Source: Escherichia phage mEp460_ev081
Length of the DNA stretch: 45,865 bases
Sequence record: LR597641
Direction: 5' to 3' (one strand)
The translations under genes and the position numbers were made by a program. Of this stretch, positions 14,945-41,111 are shown in pieces (positions within the stretch are counted from its first letter, which is position 1; each line of letters begins with the position of its first letter). Below the pieces are notes generated by a model. The model was given only the letters and a program-made list of their open reading frames with translations, made no database searches and was not told where the DNA came from.

Positions 14945-17900
14945 ATGGGTAAAGGCAGCAGTAAGGGGCATACTCCGCGCGAAGCGAAGGACAACCTGAA
15001 GTCCACGCAGTTGCTGAGTGTGATCGATGCCATCAGCGAAGGGCCGGTTGAAGGTCCGGTGGATGGATTAAAAAGCGTGCTGCTGAACAGTACGCCAGTG
15101 CTGGACACTGAGGGGAATACCAACATCTCCGGCGTCACGGTGGTGTTCCGGGCCGGTGAGCAGGAGCAGACACCGCCGGAGGGATTTGAATCCTCCGGCT
15201 CCGAGGCGGTGCTGGGTACGGAAGTGAAATACGACACGCCGATCACCCGGACCATCACGTCGGCAAACATTGACCGACTGCGTTTTACCTTCGGCGTGCA
15301 GGCACTGGTGGAAACCACCTCAAAGGGGGACAGGAATCCGTCGGAAGTCCGCCTGCTGGTTCAGATACAACGTAACGGTGGCTGGGTGACGGAAAAAGAC
15401 ATCACCATTAAAGGCAAAACCACCTCACAGTATCTGGCCTCGGTGGTGGTGGGTAACCTGCCGCCGCGCCCGTTCAATATCCGGATGCGCAGGATGACGC
15501 CGGACAGCACCACAGACCAGCTGCAGAACAAAACGCTCTGGTCGTCATACACCGAAATCATCGATGTGAAACAGTGCTACCCGAACACGGCACTGGTCGG
15601 CGTACAGGTGGATTCGGAGCAGTTCGGCAGCCAGCAGGTGAGCCGTAATTATCATCTTCGCGGGCGCATTCTGCAGGTGCCGTCGAACTATAACCCGCAG
15701 ACGCGACAATACAGCGGTATCTGGGACGGAACGTTACAACCGGCATACAGCAACAACATGGCCTGGTGTCTGTGGGATATGCTGACCCATCCGCGCTACG
15801 GCATGGGGAAACGTCTTGGTGCGGCGGATGTGGATAAATGGGCGCTGTATGTCATCGGCCAGAATTGCGACCAGTCGGTGCCGGATGGCTTTGGTGGCAC
15901 GGAACCGCGTATCACCTGTAATGCGTACCTGACCACGCAGCGCAAGGCGTGGGATGTGCTCAGTGATTTCTGCTCGGCGATGCGCTGTATGCCGGTATGG
16001 AACGGGCAGACGCTGACGTTCGTGCAGGACCGGCCATCGGATAAGGTGTGGACCTATAACCGCAGTAATGTGGTGATGCCGGATGATGGCGCGCCGTTCC
16101 GCTACAGCTTCAGCGCCCTGAAGGACCGTCATAATGCCGTTGAGGTGAACTGGATTGACCCGAATAACGGCTGGGAGACGGCGACAGAGCTTGTGGAGGA
16201 TACGCAGGCCATTGTCCGTTATGGTCGTAACGTCACGAAGATGGATGCCTTTGGCTGTACCAGCCGGGGGCAGGCACACCGCGCCGGGCTGTGGCTGATT
16301 AAAACGGAGCTGCTGGAGACGCAGACCGTGGACTTCAGCGTGGGCGCAGAAGGGCTTCGCCATGTACCGGGCGATGTCATTGAAATCTGTGATGATGACT
16401 ATGCGGGGATCAGCACCGGCGGGCGTGTGCTGGCGGTGAACAGCCAGACCCGGACGCTGACGCTCGACCGTGAAATCACGCTGCCATCCTCCGGTACCAC
16501 GCTGATAAGCCTGGTTGACGGAAGTGGCAATCCGGTCAGCGTGGAGGTTCAGTCCGTCACCGACGGCGTGAAGGTGAAAGTGAGCCGTGTTCCTGACGGC
16601 GTTGCCGGATACAGCGTGTGGGGGCTGAAGCTGCCGACGCTGCGCCAGCGCCTGTTCCGCTGTGTGAGTATCCGTGAGAACGACGACGGCACGTATGCCA
16701 TCACTGCCGTGCAGCATGTGCCGGAAAAAGAGGCCATCGTGGATAACGGAGCGCACTTTGACGGCGACCAGAGCGGCACGGTGAATGGTGTCACGCCGCC
16801 AGCGGTGCAGCACCTGACCGCAGAAGTCACCGCAGACAGTGGGGAGTATCAGGTGCTGGCGCGCTGGGACACGCCGAAGGTAGTGAAGGGTGTGAGCTTT
16901 ATGCTTCGCCTGACCGTGGCCGCCGATGACGGCAGTGAGCGGCTGGTCAGCACGGCCCGGACGACGGAAACCACTTACCGCTTCAGGCAGCTGGCGCTGG
17001 GGCGTTACACGCTGACGGTCCGGGCGGTAAATGCCCGGGGACAGCAGGGCGATCCGGCGTCGGTATCGTTCCGGATTGCCGCCCCGGCAGCGCCGTCGCG
17101 GATTGAGCTGACGCCGGGCTATTTTCAGATAACTGCCACGCCGCATCTTGCGGTTTATGATCCGACGGTACAGTTTGAGTTCTGGTTCTCGGAAACGCGG
17201 ATTACCGATATCAGGCAGGTTGAAACCACAGCCCGCTACCTTGGCACGGGGCTGTACTGGATAGCCGCCAGTATCAATATCAAACCGGGCCATGATTATT
17301 ACTTTTATATCCGCAGTGTGAACACCGTTGGCAAATCGGCATTCGTGGAGGCCGTCGGTCGGGCGAGCGATGATGCGGAAGGTTACCTGGATTTTTTCAA
17401 AGGCAAGATAACCGAATCCCATCTCGGTAAAGAGCTGCTGGAAAAAGTTGATCTGACGGAGGATAACGCCAGCAGACTGGATGAGTTTTCGAAAGAGTGG
17501 AAGGACGCTAACGATAAATGGAATGCCATGTGGGGCGTCAAAATTGAGCAGACCAAAGACGGCAAACATTATGTCGCGGGTATTGGCCTCAGCATGGAGG
17601 ACACGGAGGAAGGCAAGCTGAGCCAGTTTCTGGTTGCCGCTAACCGTATCGCGTTTATTGACCCGGCAAACGGGAATGAAACGCCGATGTTTGTGGCGCA
17701 GGGCAACCAGATATTCATGAACGACGTGTTCCTGAAGCGCCTGACAGCCCCCACCATTACCAGCGGTGGCAGTCCTCCGGTATTTTCCCTGACATCAGAC
17801 GGAAAGCTGACCGCTAAAAATGCGGATATCAGTGGTAGTGTGAATGCGAACTCAGGAACGCTCAACAATGTCACGATTAACCAGAACTGTACGATTAAGG

Positions 17901-33387: not shown

Positions 33388-33821
33388 TGTTAGGTATTTT
33401 AGACGTTACTAGATTAAAAAGCATTAGTTCAGGAGTGAATTGACATTCTCATTTTTCATGGCACAGGGTAGATCTGGCGTGGTTGTCCGCTTTGTGCCAA
33501 GAGCGGACGTTGGTATGCAAGAGCCCTCCAAAAGTTGATGGTTGGTTTGCAGGGGGGCTTAAAGAAACTGCACTTATCAAGTTGAAGTTCTGTATTCAGC
33601 GAAATCGTAGCACTCTGACGATAAGTAACTCCGGTACTCCGCTCTTCGATGAAGAACCAGAGTAATCCCCCCGAAAAACCAGCGCATCAAAATTGGATCT
33701 TCAGCGGTAGCTTATCGGCTATCGGAAGTACAGGTGTGGATTCGTGGTGAATTGCTTTGATAATAAACGATTAATACGGAAAAACGCATTAATCATTTAT
33801 TAGCTTTTAGTAAACCACAAT

Positions 33822-35171
33822 TTATTCCGTTTTACATATCATAGTAGTCGATTGGAGAATATAGTTTCTGGGAATGTACTCTTCAAAGTGTTCGTCCTTT
33901 TTAAATACATGAACTACATTTGGGAATAATTGATAGTCAACAGGGTGTATAGCGTTTGGATTATGGTACATGTACATGGCTGTACACCATGGTTCTTGAT
34001 AGTTAGGGTCACTTACATCGGCTGAAAATGGATGTGGGGCTGCATCCTGATCAGTTTTAACACCACTGACGTACACTTTGAATCCACTCGCCTCTACACC
34101 TGCAAGAATTCCCATCCGGTTAAACTTAGGTATGGTTGCTTGAGTAGTGAGTAAAACGGCAGAAACATAATTATTTTGTTCTGAGCCAAAAAAGTTCGAC
34201 TTGATACTTCTATTTTCATCTGTATGTCTTTCAATAGAAATGCCTGACTCAATATCAATCCCGTACAAATAGCTATGCAAGGCTTCGCTTGAGAAGGCCA
34301 TGGACATTCTTTTTGAATAATCCTGCATTGCTATGACAAATGGTTTGTTCTTTGTATGGTTGAGTTCCCAGTAATGAACTTTCTCTGGCTCAGGGCAATG
34401 CCGGACTTTTTTTAATAAACTTCTTGCAAACTTAAAAGGCATGACATTTAGAACATGTTTTCTTAATTCATCCATCTGTTCATCGTTAATGACTTTTCTT
34501 TCAAGAGGGGCTTCTGCTTCAGCAATGCTTACAGCCTCTACAGCAATTTCCACTCCAAATTTAGATAGCAGAAAATCTGGTTGATTGTATTCTCTATTCA
34601 TTTCAAAGTCGAGTTCATAAAATACAGCGTTCAAATATAATTCAAATAACCTTGAATTAAATGCATCACTTTGAAAATCCCTTATAAATATTCCATCAGG
34701 ATCTTTGAACCAGTATGCAAGTTCCTCAAGAACAATATATGCAGGGAAATGAAGAGGGTCTTCGAGGAGCATTTTTATATAAACATTCCTTTTTTTCTCT
34801 GGGACTTTACTCAAGAATAATGAAAAAGGTTTGGATGATTCATCGCCTTGCATGAATGTACCATTTTGGTGCTGCGCCAGCATCTTTGGTATGTCATCGT
34901 TCAAATTATTAAGCAAGACATCCATTGAATCAAATGAAGCCAAGACGTTTATTGCTCTGAATTTTTTATCTAAATCCCGACCTAAGACTATTGCGTTAAA
35001 ATCTTTATCAATATTGCATATGATTATTGTGGATAACAATGTTATCCCATTCCCCTCATATTTAAACCAGCGTATCTCCTCAGAAAATGTCTTAAGGTAA
35101 GGTGAGCGACCGTAAAAATAAATATCAAATTGTTCTTTGCTGATCTCACTGAAGTGTAATCCTGCGTTCAT
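33822..35171 (-). CDS. Hypothetical protein, AT-rich orphan gene (candidate accessory/defence cargo)
   Basis: 449-aa uninterrupted ORF on the strand opposite its neighbours, in a markedly AT-rich segment; no P-loop, HEXXH, RT or other motif I can recognise. Confidence 0.7.
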   Translation of the reverse strand: MNAGLHFSEISKEQFDIYFYGRSPYLKTFSEEIRWFKYEGNGITLLSTIIICNIDKDFNAIVLGRDLDKKFRAINVLASFDSMDVLLNNLNDDIPKMLAQHQNGTFMQGDESSKPFSLFLSKVPEKKRNVYIKMLLEDPLHFPAYIVLEELAYWFKDPDGIFIRDFQSDAFNSRLFELYLNAVFYELDFEMNREYNQPDFLLSKFGVEIAVEAVSIAEAEAPLERKVINDEQMDELRKHVLNVMPFKFARSLLKKVRHCPEPEKVHYWELNHTKNKPFVIAMQDYSKRMSMAFSSEALHSYLYGIDIESGISIERHTDENRSIKSNFFGSEQNNYVSAVLLTTQATIPKFNRMGILAGVEASGFKVYVSGVKTDQDAAPHPFSADVSDPNYQEPWCTAMYMYHNPNAIHPVDYQLFPNVVHVFKKDEHFEEYIPRNYILQSTTMICKTE

Positions 35172-35293
35172 ACCAATTCCTTTTCAATGAATAATTGGCC
35201 TTTAGGAGTGATTCCCTTTGTCTTTAATTCAGTTCTAACTAGTTCTTTAATCCAATAGCCTAAGCTCATCATGCAGTTGGATCATAAGACAAC

Positions 35294-35322
35294 GCCCTAT
35301 AGTGCTCGTGATACTATAGGGC
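35294..35322. promoter_or_regulatory. Perfect 10-bp inverted repeat (GCCCTATAGT-9 bp-ACTATAGGGC), operator candidate
   Basis: Seen directly in the intergenic region upstream of the 449-aa gene's start codon. Confidence 0.4.
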
Positions 35323-35613
35323 ATCTGACCACACTGTTAACTGGAGTAACGACTATGGCAGGAATACAGCATAACCAAACTCACCCCAAACTTACATAGC
35401 GCTTTCTGGCCGTGAGCATAACAAGGTCCACTCCTCGCTCAAAGCGGACTAGAAGGTTAGCTTGTGTCGGACTTTGCGTATTAAATGACTAGTGGTTGAG
35501 CCCCATTTCCACAGAAAAAATCAGAGAAACTATACCCAATAGTTGTATTGAATCACTGACGAGACAGCCTCATATTCATCAGGACTGGTGTACGTCCAAT
35601 ACAGGAGGTTGTG

Positions 35614-35703
35614 GTGCTGGTTCTCAAATGTGCGCTGGCTATTACGGCTGTAATGGCGATTTATTGTCTTGCTATTGTTCTTATGGATCGCCTTTCTGAC
35701 TGA
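35614..35703 (+). CDS. Small hydrophobic peptide (29 aa; type I toxin-like or small membrane protein), tentative
   Basis: GGAGG (35604-35608) followed 5 nt later by GTG; encodes MLVLKCALAITAVMAIYCLAIVLMDRLSD, one predicted TM helix with a charged tail; the overlapping frame-0 Cys/Gly-rich ORF looks like an alternative-frame artefact. Confidence 0.35.
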   Translation: MLVLKCALAITAVMAIYCLAIVLMDRLSD

Positions 35704-35914
35704 TTTCACATTGGCGAGGTAACGGTAGTTAAGTAGAATGGCTGCGGGTGCTTGAGGCTATCTGCCTCGGGCATGAACACCAACGGCAGATAGAGAAAAG
35801 CCCCAGTTAACATTACGCGTCCTGCAAGACGCTTAACATTAATCTGAGGCCAATTTCATGCTAGACACATGTAGGTTAGCCTCTTACGTGCCGAAAGGCA
35901 AGGAGAAGCAGGCT

Positions 35915-36070
35915 ATGAAGCAGCAAAAGGCGATGTTAATCGCCCTGATCGTCATCTGTTTAACCGTCATAGTGACGGCACTGGTAACGAGGAAAGACCT
36001 CTGCGAGGTACGAATCCGAACCGGGCAGACGGAGGTCGCTGTCTTCACAGCTTACGAACCTGAGGAGTAA
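35915..36070 (+). CDS. hok: Hok/Gef-family type I toxin (HokD/RelF-like)
   Basis: 51 aa MKQQKAMLIALIVICLTVIVTALVTRKDLCEVRIRTGQTEVAVFTAYEPEE; the in-frame upstream extension from 35858 sits in the mok position; 3' fold-back region and terminator follow. Confidence 0.9.
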   Translation: MKQQKAMLIALIVICLTVIVTALVTRKDLCEVRIRTGQTEVAVFTAYEPEE

Positions 36071-36138
36071 GAGACCCGGCGAGGGAGAAATCCCTCGCCA
36101 CCTCTGATGTGGCAGGCATCCTCAACGCACCCGCACTT

Positions 36139-36168
36139 AACCCGCTTCGGCGGGTTTTTGTTTTTATT
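36139..36168 (+). terminator. hok mRNA terminator
   Basis: cccgcttcggcggg hairpin followed by tttttgtttttatttt. Confidence 0.6.
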
Positions 36169-40961: not shown

Positions 40962-41111
40962 TATTTATTGTTTTGTAATAAACGGTTTCGGCTTAGGTTT
41001 GTTCTGACACAACTACGGCACTGAGCTAAATTTAGCGGATAGTCAGCTCTGAGCCAGTGGCGGACGTAACAACTACTATTGCTGAGATTTTAATGGATTG
41101 AGGAGCAAGAA

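What the first reader, a model, noticed from the sequence alone, without database searches (positions are those of the whole stretch)
33400..35710. AT-rich cargo island with a 449-aa orphan gene of unknown function, next to a palindromic operator, a small hydrophobic ORF and hok
Between the replication gene and hok, the composition drops sharply in GC and a single 449-aa ORF (33822-35171) runs opposite to the surrounding early operon, which is the usual signature of horizontally acquired defence cargo in lambdoid nin regions. I cannot match the protein to any ATPase, nuclease, RT, protease or HEPN signature by eye. Its upstream region holds a perfect 10-bp palindrome and a strongly ribosome-bound 29-codon hydrophobic ORF. 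In Qin this position holds relBE-hokD, so a different and possibly novel module has replaced a toxin-antitoxin locus.
Basis: partly seen in the sequence, partly recalled or inferred. Interest (0 to 1): 0.75.

Follow-up and report, generated by a model that had tools for sequence, protein, structure and literature searches.

The report
Known PD-T7-1 defence gene cassette

Summary
A low-GC island (0.386 against 0.47-0.49 in the flanks) holds one 449-aa ORF (33822-35171, minus strand) that runs against the prophage early operon, next to hok/sok.

The ORF is not an orphan. It matches the PADLOC model PD-T7-1 end to end (E = 4e-157). PD-T7-1 is a single-gene anti-phage system that Vassallo et al. 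validated in 2022. The identical protein occurs on 565 contigs, and 191 complete E. coli genomes carry at least 80% of 33400-35860.

The island is a discrete 1,965-bp cassette (33485-35449). It is bracketed by inverted copies of a 24-bp motif, the same motif that flanks fun(Z) in phage P2 (Nilsson et al. 2004). That bracket encloses dozens of other defence cargos in lambdoid and P2-like phages.

Verdict: already known, low interest, with a modest evolutionary footnote.

The parts
33485..33508 (+). Left bracket: the 24-bp hairpin-forming motif GTCCGCTTTGTGCCAAGAGCGGAC, at the exact left end of the cassette
   Evidence: The pattern search finds 2 copies in the window against 0 expected in 100 shuffles. 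The Yersinia P2-like copy of the cassette starts exactly here, and lambdoid backbones with other cargo run up to 33511. The same motif flanks fun(Z) in phage P2.
33680..33760 (+). 3' remnant (about 26 codons) of an alpA (AlpA/excisionase-family) gene, convergent with PD-T7-1; a pseudogene
   Evidence: PGAP annotates an 'AlpA family / helix-turn-helix, incomplete, missing N-terminus' fragment on identical DNA. tblastn gives 85% identity to the C-terminus of the intact AlpA that follows PD-T7-1 in an Enterobacter element. Intact alpA-int lies downstream of the homologues in Enterobacter, Buttiauxella, Edwardsiella and Serratia.
33822..35171 (-). PD-T7-1, a single-gene anti-phage defence protein of 449 aa. 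Predicted layout: N-terminal alpha/beta domain (about 1-100), PD-(D/E)xK-like nuclease core (about 130-260; E177, D199, E212, K255 invariant) and a conserved C-terminal domain (about 270-449)
35168..35272 (-). 34-codon relic of a 64-aa ribbon-helix-helix (YlcI/YnfO-like) gene. The N-terminal two-thirds are deleted, the stop codon is mutated (TAA to CAA), and the frame now ends in ATGA overlapping the PD-T7-1 start codon
   Evidence: Protein alignment with the intact 59-64-aa proteins upstream of PD-T7-1 in four genera. The DNA alignment shows a deletion of about 160 bp that also removed the gene's own palindromic operator/promoter region. Sub-threshold NCBIfam hits of the intact protein to YlcI/YnfO, RelB and the RepA regulator. 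PGAP names E. coli homologues YlcI/YnfO or HicB-family antitoxin.
35294..35322 (-). Conserved stem-loop (10-nt perfect arms, 9-nt loop; up to 13 pairs with G-U).
   Evidence: Inverted repeat found. 51 unique variants in related elements show compensatory changes. 50 of 51 fold more stably on the PD-T7-1-sense strand (mean -25.4 against -20.8 kcal/mol), with many G-U pairs and usually a U-rich tail. No Rfam family matches it.
35313..35340 (-). Best sigma-70-like promoter candidate for PD-T7-1: -35 TTAACA, 16-nt spacer, -10 TATAGT. The -10 hexamer lies in the 5' arm of the stem-loop
   Evidence: Consensus scan, 10 of 12 matches, the best hit on this strand. The TATAGT version of the stem occurs only in the truncated cassette form. 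This is a prediction, not shown.
35355..35399 (+). First 14 codons (MAGIQHNQTHPKLT, then stop), with their GGAG ribosome-binding site at 35343-35346, of an Icd-like cell-division-inhibitor gene that opens the satellite's replication operon; a remnant
   Evidence: The intact 95-aa homologue in Enterobacter hits NF033153 phage_ICD_like at 57.7 bits (cutoff 25). Alignment and synteny. Sequence read.
35426..35449 (-). Right bracket: an inverted copy of the 24-bp motif (GTCCGCTTTGAGCGAGGAGTGGAC on the minus strand), at the exact right end of the cassette
   Evidence: The same motif pair brackets different cargo in GPEC606 and phage Evi and 85 distinct cassettes in viral contigs.
35611..35703 (+). 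Context, not part of the cassette: a conserved small hydrophobic ORF (29 aa from the GTG at 35614; AGGAGG at 35603-35608) in the hok-proximal backbone
   Evidence: Conserved with its SD and start codon and only conservative substitutions in five copies that have diverged 4-10%. No NCBIfam match. Not annotated by PGAP.
35746..36070 (+). Context, not part of the cassette: the hok/sok type I toxin-antitoxin locus (sok/hok leader 35746-35920; mok-like frame 35858-36070; hokD 35915-36070)
   Evidence: Rfam RF01794 at 115 bits, E = 7e-27. HokD annotated on identical DNA. Hok-family NCBIfam hit.

Best explanation
The island is a 1,965-bp mobile cassette (33485-35449) whose only intact gene is PD-T7-1, a known, experimentally validated, single-protein anti-phage defence system.

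Shown here:
- The protein is a full-length member of the PD-T7-1 family.
- The family is a stand-alone gene with no recurrent partner.
- It has a central domain with the PD-(D/E)xK restriction-endonuclease fold and invariant acidic residues (E177, D199, E212) at the positions of the catalytic motif.
- The cassette is bracketed by inverted copies of the 24-bp motif that also flanks fun(Z) in phage P2.
- Its interior is a fragment of a Gram-negative PICI-type satellite.

Inferred:
- The prophage expresses the gene during lysogeny. The likely source is the TTAACA-16-TATAGT promoter that overlaps the inherited hairpin, because the native promoter and its ribbon-helix-helix regulator were deleted.
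- On infection by T7-like or T-even phages, the N- and/or C-terminal domains sense a phage cue, and the nuclease core cuts nucleic acid. Phage DNA is the most likely target. A tRNA or other RNA target is the alternative, because the best structural match is a PD-(D/E)xK tRNase toxin.
- This protects the lysogen and therefore the prophage.
- The cassette reached this slot by recombination at the bracket motif, which also moved the same cassette into P2-like phages.
For: Identity:
- PADLOC PD-T7-1 E = 4e-157, covering residues 8-447 against profile positions 2-448 of 452.
- The validated ECOR46 gene has the same ORF length (1,350 nt), and its published HHpred nuclease hits fall at residues 171-219, the same numbering as the motif found here.
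- Phenotype in the literature: protects against T7 and more strongly against T-even phages (PMC9519451). Protects against a Teseptimavirus and reduces T7 plaque size when expressed in K-12 (10.1101/2024.12.20.629700).

Stand-alone gene:
- 204 homologues and 222 loci in 100,044 species genomes, with no recurrent neighbouring gene family.

Nuclease core:
- Invariant E177, P198-D199, E212-A213 and K255 among 32 homologues down to 34% identity.
- A weak PHROG Holliday-junction-resolvase hit at residues 196-239.
- PD-T7-5, a second validated system, shares residues 117-427.

Spread and selection:
- The identical protein is on 565 contigs.
- 191 complete E. coli genomes carry at least 80% of 33400-35860, with the best matches 100% identical over the full length.

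Cassette and bracket: and PMC8987985 citing Nilsson et al. 2004.

PICI origin: and the zone scheme of PMC10111431.

Promoter.
Against: - No biochemical activity, trigger, or abortive-versus-direct classification for PD-T7-1 could be found in the text available to me. That classification is only in a figure of PMC9519451.
- I could not retrieve the ECOR46 sequence, so I could not confirm that the validated clone is the same truncated-RHH cassette. This is inferred from the ORF length and from the absence of any intact RHH-PD-T7-1 arrangement in 5,426 complete E. coli genomes.
- Expression from the predicted promoter is untested.
- The recombination mechanism at the bracket is inferred from sequence patterns. 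No recombinase is identified.
Confidence: 0.85

Rival explanations
1. One reading: the 449-aa protein is a novel, uncharacterised defence module that replaced a toxin-antitoxin locus.
For: No Pfam or NCBIfam family matches. PHROG 8571 is 'unknown function'. RefSeq calls it a hypothetical protein. The slot does hold relBE in Qin.
Against: There is a full-length, very strong match to PADLOC PD-T7-1, a system published and validated in 2022. The same protein is on 565 contigs. The 'replacement' is generic cassette turnover at a bracketed slot, not a specific swap with relBE.
Confidence: 0.03
2. PD-T7-1 is the toxin of a two-gene toxin-antitoxin or regulator-effector pair with the upstream ribbon-helix-helix protein, and the window copy, having lost that partner, is inactive or a decaying remnant.
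For: An intact 59-64-aa RHH-like gene lies 21-23 bp upstream of PD-T7-1 in Enterobacter, Buttiauxella, Edwardsiella and Serratia. It gives weak hits to RelB-type antitoxins, and PGAP calls some homologues HicB-family antitoxin.
Against: - The same RHH gene precedes many unrelated cargos in the satellite slot. It belongs to the slot, not to PD-T7-1.
- Distant PD-T7-1 homologues have no such neighbour.
- The nuclease ORF is intact and identical on 565 contigs without the RHH.
- No complete E. coli genome has the intact pair, yet E. coli PD-T7-1 was active when cloned alone.
Confidence: 0.07
3. The effector is an RNase (for example a tRNase) that acts by abortive infection, rather than a DNase that attacks phage DNA.
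Against: Most other structural neighbours are DNA endonucleases or resolvases (XisH, BsmI, NucC, Hjc, HamA, FokI, HindIII). Vassallo et al. note that 7 of 11 putative DNase systems gave direct immunity, but they do not say in the text which group PD-T7-1 falls in.
Confidence: 0.25
4. The inverted repeat at 35294-35322 is a protein-binding operator that controls PD-T7-1.
For: It overlaps the -10 hexamer of the best predicted promoter. Symmetric change in both arms is also what a co-evolving dimeric operator would show.
Against: - 50 of 51 variants are more stable on one strand, because many pairs are G-T on that strand and would be A-C on the other. Duplex protein binding does not predict this.
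- Most variants carry a U-rich tail, as intrinsic terminators do.
- In intact elements the RHH gene has a separate palindrome (GTGTACCTATT...AATAGGTACAC) just before its start, and this is deleted here.
- No regulator gene remains in the cassette.
Confidence: 0.15

Closest known systems
PD-T7-1 (Vassallo et al. 2022, Nat Microbiol; PADLOC PDLC04073)
   Same: Full-length profile match, the same 449-aa length, the same single-gene organisation, and the same position of the weak PD-(D/E)xK signature (residues about 171-219). It is found in prophages, as reported for PD-T7-1 homologues.
   Different: Nothing of substance. I could not retrieve the ECOR46 sequence for a residue-by-residue comparison. 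New here: the gene's cassette context (bracket motif, PICI-derived remnants).
PD-T7-5 (Vassallo et al. 2022; PADLOC PDLC04110)
   Same: Shares the nuclease core plus the C-terminal domain (residues 117-427, E = 1.5e-40). It is also a single-gene system annotated 'Nuclease'.
   Different: PD-T7-5 is shorter (profile of 346 positions) and lacks the N-terminal domain of about 110 aa. The match is much weaker than to PD-T7-1.
PD-(D/E)xK nuclease superfamily (restriction endonuclease-like fold; for example Hjc, XisH, CdiA-CT 1026b, NucC, HamA)
   Different: The third motif is E-A-[V/T], not (D/E)-x-K. An invariant K255 on the following helix may substitute, but that is inference. Large flanking domains have no annotated relatives. 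No sequence-level hit to any Pfam PD-(D/E)xK family.
Inverted-repeat-flanked Z/fun cassettes of P2-like phages (Nilsson, Karlsson and Haggard-Ljungquist 2004, Mol Biol Evol 21:1-13)
   Same: The same 24-bp motif, in inverted orientation, sits at both cassette ends. It flanks fun(Z) in reference P2 and flanks this very PD-T7-1 cassette in the P2-like Yersinia phage vB_YpM_46. [quoted passage not shown]
   Different: Here the bracket sits in a lambdoid (Rac/Qin-like) prophage between DUF977 and hok, not between P2 genes G and FI. I could not read the 2004 paper itself, so I tested the equivalence of 'their' repeat and this motif on the P2 sequence, not against their text.
Gram-negative PICI / helper-embedded PICI satellites (Fillol-Salom et al. 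2018; PMC10111431)
   Same: The cassette interior reproduces, in order, the end of alpA, an accessory gene with its small RHH gene, a regulatory hairpin, and the start of the icd-like gene that leads the replication zone. This is the int-alpA / dynamic zone / replication zone layout.
   Different: Only a fragment of about 1.9 kb is present. There is no integrase, primase or intact alpA, so it is not a satellite, only DNA derived from one.

Membership tests
PD-T7-1 defence system | Full-length match to the family profile | tested here: met
   PADLOC PDLC04073 E = 4e-157, 521 bits, residues 8-447 against profile positions 2-448 of 452.
PD-T7-1 defence system | Single-gene system with no obligatory partner gene | tested here: met
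   No recurrent neighbouring family among 89 loci. Listed as one CDS in Table S2 of PMC9519451. The upstream RHH gene is slot-associated and is truncated here.
PD-T7-1 defence system | Weak PD-(D/E)xK/Hjc-like signature around residues 171-219 | tested here: met
PD-T7-1 defence system | Reduces plating of T7-like and T-even phages | not testable with these tools
   Known for the ECOR46 and NILS69 genes. Not measured for this exact sequence.
PD-(D/E)xK nuclease superfamily | Restriction-endonuclease-like alpha/beta core fold | tested here: met
PD-(D/E)xK nuclease superfamily | Catalytic motif D...(D/E)-x-K | tested here: inconclusive
   D199 and E212 are invariant, but position 214 is V or T, not K. 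Invariant K255 might substitute. The active-site geometry was not examined.
PD-(D/E)xK nuclease superfamily | Metal-dependent phosphodiester cleavage | not testable with these tools
   No biochemical data found.
Inverted-repeat-bracketed Z/fun-type cassette (Nilsson et al. 2004) | Inverted copies of the conserved motif exactly at both cargo boundaries | tested here: met
   33485-33508 (+) and 35426-35449 (-), with 0 expected by chance. The breakpoints coincide with the motif.
Inverted-repeat-bracketed Z/fun-type cassette (Nilsson et al. 2004) | The same motif flanks fun(Z) in phage P2 | tested here: met
   NC_001895: motif at 15335-15358 (+, 2 mismatches) and 17432-17455 (-, 4 mismatches) on either side of fun(Z).
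Inverted-repeat-bracketed Z/fun-type cassette (Nilsson et al. 2004) | Alternative cargos occupy the same bracketed slot | tested here: met
   85 distinct cassettes. Lambdoid and P2-like contexts. 8 of 10 sampled cargos are PADLOC defence families.
Inverted-repeat-bracketed Z/fun-type cassette (Nilsson et al. 2004) | Movement by site-specific recombination at the repeats | not testable with these tools
   No recombinase identified. No target-site duplication seen. The claim rests on sequence patterns and on the cited literature.
Type II toxin-antitoxin pair (RHH antitoxin plus toxin) | Intact antitoxin gene adjacent to the toxin | tested here: not met
   The RHH gene has lost its beta-strand and first helix. 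No intact pair in any complete E. coli genome.
hok/sok type I toxin-antitoxin (context) | sok/hok-leader RNA structure plus a Hok peptide | tested here: met
   Rfam RF01794 at 115 bits against a gathering score of 59. HokD WP_000813254.1 annotated on identical DNA.
Retron / DRT (RT-associated effector) | Reverse transcriptase encoded next to the effector | tested here: not met
   No RT in the window island. Only one homologue (P. fluorescens HK44) has an overlapping upstream RT, and none of the other loci do.

The most novel reading that the evidence does not exclude
The 24-bp inverted-repeat bracket marks an active, integron-like cassette-exchange network that moves defence genes between three unrelated kinds of mobile element: PICI-type satellites (the source of this cassette's interior), P2-like phages (Z/fun slot) and Rac/Qin-like lambdoid prophages (DUF977-hok slot). 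It would be driven by a still-unidentified recombinase or hairpin-dependent mechanism. In this reading the E. coli form of PD-T7-1 was 'unlocked' for constitutive expression when its RHH regulator was deleted and a new -10 element arose inside the inherited hairpin.
Probability: 0.25. Interest if true: 0.55.

Novelty: already known. Interest (0 to 1): 0.22.

Why it matters
For the finding as submitted, it matters little. The gene is a catalogued defence system that standard tools (PADLOC, DefenseFinder) would flag, and the same sequence is common in E. coli.

Two side results have some value.

1. The molecular mechanism of PD-T7-1 is still unknown. The invariant residues (E177, D199, E212, K255, D157/D159, H316, R352, H403-N404-P405) and the three-domain model give concrete targets for mutagenesis.

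2. The cassette carries unmistakable relics of a PICI-type satellite, yet it sits between the Nilsson-type repeats in both a lambdoid prophage and a P2-like phage. That is a documented case of defence DNA passing between satellite, P2-like and lambdoid elements. A 2026 survey reported no P2 or P4 defence homologues in PICIs. In addition, the bracket motif gives a simple sequence handle (GTCCGCTTTG-N-GC-N-A-NN-AG-N-GGAC, in inverted pairs) for harvesting defence cassettes, including unannotated ones.

Tried and rejected
- Pfam and NCBIfam on the 449-aa protein gave no hits.
- Foldseek of the whole model against the PDB gave nothing with E < 0.01. The Rad50 'hits' have TM about 0.12 and are meaningless.
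- A profile search of PDB sequences gave no hit at E <= 1.
- The afdb50 fold library was unavailable.
- RT-associated effector idea: prompted by the overlapping RT gene in P. fluorescens HK44. Rejected as a one-off after surveying 89 loci.
- TA-pair idea with the RHH gene: rejected, because the RHH gene goes with the slot rather than the cargo and is truncated here.
- Rfam on the island and on four intact satellites gave no family for the hairpin. C4, c4-a1b1 and isrK hits occur in one satellite (L098) but 230-430 nt away from the hairpin. A weak isrK-like hit at 36079-36160 is below threshold.
- attC (integron) reading of the bracket: considered because cargo starts after 'GGAC-GTT' and adjacent cassettes are separated by a 66-bp composite palindrome. 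Set aside because the stem sequence is conserved rather than only the structure, the GTTRRRY box is not consistently met, and no integron integrase is nearby.
- MITE/transposon reading: no target-site duplication.
- Literature search for the motif sequence itself returned only chance matches.
- I could not obtain Nilsson et al. 2004, the ECOR46 contig, or the figure-only abortive/direct call for PD-T7-1.
Full report
**Observation.** The window holds a 449-aa ORF at 33822-35171 on the minus strand, inside a clear GC trough of 0.33-0.39 in 300-bp windows. The cassette GC is 0.386 and the ORF 0.364, against 0.465 and 0.489 in the flanking 5 kb. The surrounding genes are on the plus strand. On identical DNA in RefSeq genomes they are annotated as a Rac/Qin-like early region: HTH repressor, Cro/CI, YdaT-family, a replication-region protein and DUF977 upstream; hokD, rem, ydfU (DUF968), rusA and antiterminator Q downstream. 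So the basic observation stands. Three details need correcting:
- The 'perfect 10-bp palindrome' is a 10-nt perfect inverted repeat with a 9-nt spacer (35294-35303 and 35313-35322).
- The small hydrophobic ORF and hok lie outside the acquired DNA.
- The island's real ends are 33485 and 35449.

**What the gene is.** Pfam and NCBIfam find nothing, and PHROGs gives only an 'unknown function' family. The PADLOC library, however, matches PD-T7-1 over the whole protein (E = 4e-157, residues 8-447 against profile positions 2-448 of 452), and more weakly PD-T7-5 over residues 117-427 (E = 1.5e-40).

PD-T7-1 is one of the 21 systems recovered by functional selection from the E. coli pangenome (Vassallo et al. 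2022, PMC9519451). It is a single CDS from ECOR46 with a 1,350-nt ORF, the same length as here. It is labelled 'Nuclease', was cloned with about 300 bp on one side of the ORF (presumably the upstream side, since the systems were cloned with native promoters), and protects more strongly against T-even phages than against T7. An independent study found that PD-T7-1 from strain NILS69 protects against a Teseptimavirus and shrinks T7 plaques when expressed in K-12.

The published HHpred hits are weak (Hjc 80% probability, residues 177-219; PDDEXK_5 55%) and use the same residue numbering as the motif I find. The exact window protein is on 565 contigs. 191 of 5,426 complete E. coli genomes carry at least 80% of 33400-35860, and the best matches are 100% identical over the full length. 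The gene is therefore neither an orphan nor novel.

**How it probably works.** The family is broad: 204 hits at E < 1e-5 and 222 loci in one-genome-per-species collections, spanning Proteobacteria, Bacteroidota, Verrucomicrobiota, Planctomycetota and Actinomycetota. Across 89 loci no neighbouring gene family recurs, which fits a self-contained sensor-effector protein.

Foldseek on the whole chain and a profile search of PDB sequences find nothing, so there is no solved relative. The acidic residues sit where the catalytic motif belongs, but the third motif reads E-A-V/T rather than (D/E)-x-K. K255 on the next helix may substitute, which is inference.

I conclude, with moderate confidence, that PD-T7-1 is a nuclease-type effector with an N-terminal domain (about 1-110, absent from PD-T7-5) and a conserved C-terminal domain that are candidates for sensing. 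Whether it cuts DNA or RNA, and whether it acts by abortive infection, is not known from anything I could read.

**Anatomy of the island.** Comparison with relatives shows what the non-coding features are. In Enterobacter, Buttiauxella, Edwardsiella and Serratia the homologue lies in a fixed layout: integrase, then alpA, then (convergent) PD-T7-1 preceded by a 59-64-aa gene, then a divergent operon of small genes, DUF4222 and a D5/AAA_25 primase-helicase. Several of these elements abut prophage portal, protease or terminase genes. This is the Gram-negative PICI / helper-embedded PICI organisation described in PMC10111431.

The window keeps, in the same order:
- the last 26 codons of alpA (33680-33760; PGAP pseudogene);
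- PD-T7-1;
- a 34-codon relic of the small gene (35168-35272);
- a stem-loop (35294-35322);
- the ribosome-binding site and first 14 codons of the first gene of the divergent operon (35355-35399). That gene is Icd-like (NF033153, 57.7 bits).

The small gene is ribbon-helix-helix-like, with sub-threshold YlcI/YnfO, RelB and RepA-regulator hits. PGAP names its E. coli homologues YlcI/YnfO or HicB-family antitoxin. In the window a deletion of about 160 bp removed its N-terminal two-thirds and its own palindrome (GTGTACCTATT...AATAGGTACAC). Its stop codon mutated so that the relic now ends in an ATGA overlap with the PD-T7-1 start.

The RHH gene belongs to the satellite slot, not to PD-T7-1. It precedes several different cargos in 86 related viral contigs, where the distance from the hairpin to alpA varies from 0.45 to 2.2 kb. 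No complete E. coli genome has an intact RHH-PD-T7-1 pair, so the truncated form is the E. coli form.

**The 'palindromic operator'.** The stem-loop is conserved in position in those elements but varies in sequence, with compensatory changes. Of 51 unique variants, 50 fold more stably on the PD-T7-1-sense strand (mean -25.4 against -20.8 kcal/mol), because many pairs are G-U on that strand. Most are followed by a U-rich tract. That is the signature of an RNA hairpin, most simply an intrinsic terminator, possibly of a short transcript antisense to the icd ribosome-binding site. It is not the signature of a duplex operator. Rfam has no family for it.

In the window the stem has a unique sequence that creates TATAGT. 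Together with the conserved TTAACA 16 nt upstream, this forms the best sigma-70-like promoter on that strand (35340-35313, 10 of 12 matches). After the deletion of the native promoter region, this is the likeliest source of PD-T7-1 transcription. That is a prediction.

**The cassette and its bracket.** The copy in the P2-like Yersinia phage vB_YpM_46 (99% identity) matches 33485-35450 exactly. There it lies between the tail-fibre genes and the sheath gene FI. A lambdoid prophage with different cargo (GPEC606) matches the window up to 33511 and again from 35427.

The shared ends are inverted copies of a 24-bp hairpin-forming motif: GTCCGCTTTGTGCCAAGAGCGGAC at 33485-33508 (+) and GTCCGCTTTGAGCGAGGAGTGGAC at 35426-35449 (-). 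None are expected by chance.

The motif occurs in more than 120 viral contigs. Paired copies bracket 85 distinct cassettes encoding over 100 protein families, sometimes in arrays of three. They occur in the lambdoid DUF977-hok slot (57 loci) and in the P2-like G-FI slot (at least 16 loci), and cassettes of identical length (the 1,941-bp PD-T7-1 spacing and a 1,418-bp one) appear in both backbones. Eight of ten sampled cargos match PADLOC families: PDC-S33, retron III-A RT, DarT, DarG, AbiH, AbiEii, ThsB and NsnA. The stem sequence is conserved rather than covarying, which suggests sequence-specific recognition.

This is not new. Reference phage P2 has the same motif on both sides of fun(Z). 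[quoted passage not shown] 2004, cited in PMC8987985). Vassallo et al. also noted the Z/fun locus as a second P2 defence hotspot. I could not read the 2004 paper itself.

**The slot.** On the same prophage backbone the DUF977-hok interval holds a RelA/SpoT-domain protein, QueH plus a cytosine methyltransferase and an NgoMIV-family endonuclease, or QueH with a methylase remnant. In K-12 Qin, relBE lies directly upstream of hokD.

**Verdict.** The finding is a correct recognition of defence cargo, but the cargo is already known and catalogued. The bracket that mobilises it was described two decades ago. What this analysis adds is:
- stronger support for the nuclease core;
- a list of invariant residues;
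- evidence that the cassette interior is a fragment of a PICI-type satellite that has since spread in lambdoid and P2-like phages;
- a re-interpretation of the 'operator' as an inherited RNA hairpin that now overlaps the probable promoter.

Noticed in passing
window 35611-35703 (+): A conserved 29/30-codon hydrophobic ORF (MLVLKCALAITAVMAIYCLAIVLMDRLSD) with an AGGAGG Shine-Dalgarno sequence, upstream of hok/sok. It is kept as an ORF with only conservative hydrophobic substitutions in five copies diverged by 4-10%. PGAP does not annotate it, and NCBIfam gives no match. It could be an unrecognised small membrane protein or a type I-toxin-like gene of the lambdoid backbone.
   Followed up: partly
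L003/L013 2748-5410 (Pseudomonas fluorescens HK44, AFOY02000015.1): A 51%-identical PD-T7-1 homologue overlaps by 4 bp the end of a 418-aa reverse transcriptase (RVT_1; best PADLOC hits are a generic RT and RT_UG17; weak group II maturase hit). This is the only RT pairing among about 89 loci. It may be a distinct RT-nuclease defence pair or a chance juxtaposition.
   Followed up: partly
L093 about 2645-2740 and 86 IMG/VR loci (L098-L183); window 35294-35350: In PICI-type satellites, a highly conserved stretch of about 35 nt covers the ribosome-binding site and start of the icd-like gene (GGAGTAAC...ATGGC on the coding strand). On the opposite strand it is followed by a covarying, G-U-rich, U-tailed hairpin. 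This looks like a cis-antisense small RNA that ends opposite the icd RBS. No Rfam family matches it. In one satellite (L098), C4, c4-a1b1 and isrK matches lie 230-430 nt away.
   Followed up: partly
L109 4643-10053, L115 6164-11574, L134 546-5956: Arrays of three consecutive cassettes between DUF977 and hok (spacings 1174, 1941 and 2230 bp). The first two each have their own inverted pair, with only about 18 bp between neighbouring brackets; the third shares a boundary site with the PD-T7-1 cassette. The PD-T7-1 cassette is the middle one. The composite 66-bp junction between the first two is itself an imperfect palindrome.
   Followed up: partly
PICI slot cargos, e.g. L163 8488-9354, L111 3223-4410, L117 6827-7657, L162 3596-4513, L150 318-1370, L161 11160-12251: The slot between the hairpin and alpA in these satellites holds at least a dozen unrelated genes of 180-400 aa. 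Only one of ten tested has a strong PADLOC match (HNH-endonuclease-like, PDC-M68A). The rest are unannotated candidates for new defence genes.
   Followed up: partly
bracketed cassettes L284 5389-6397 (269-aa protein) and L298 5534-7150 (452-aa protein): Two recurrent cargo proteins of the inverted-repeat-bracketed slot (6 and 2 cassette variants) have no PADLOC match at E <= 1e-5. They are further candidate defence genes.
   Followed up: no
window 36079-36160 (+): A sub-threshold isrK-like match (25.7 bits against a gathering score of 50, E = 0.008) just downstream of hokD. It has two hairpins, the second with a U-tail. It may simply be the hok terminator region.
   Followed up: no
window 41042-41065 (+): A third, degenerate copy of the bracket motif (GTCAGCTCTGAGCCAGTGGCGGAC, 3 mismatches, followed by GTA) lies further downstream in the prophage. 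No partner copy was found within 5 mismatches.
   Followed up: no
L191 4982 and 5973 (E. coli K-12 Qin, about 1,645,981 and 1,646,972): Motif-like sites (at most 3 mismatches) flank the ydfV 3' end and flxA region next to relB in Qin. This suggests flxA may also be a bracketed cassette. Not checked further.
   Followed up: no
literature: bioRxiv 10.64898/2026.02.27.708500: This survey reports no homologues of P2 or P4 defence genes in PICI or cfPICI satellites. The PD-T7-1 cassette in P2-like phage vB_YpM_46 carries PICI-derived remnants (alpA, RHH, icd), and intact PICI-type elements carry 60-87%-identical PD-T7-1. This is an apparent counter-example at lower identity.
   Followed up: partly
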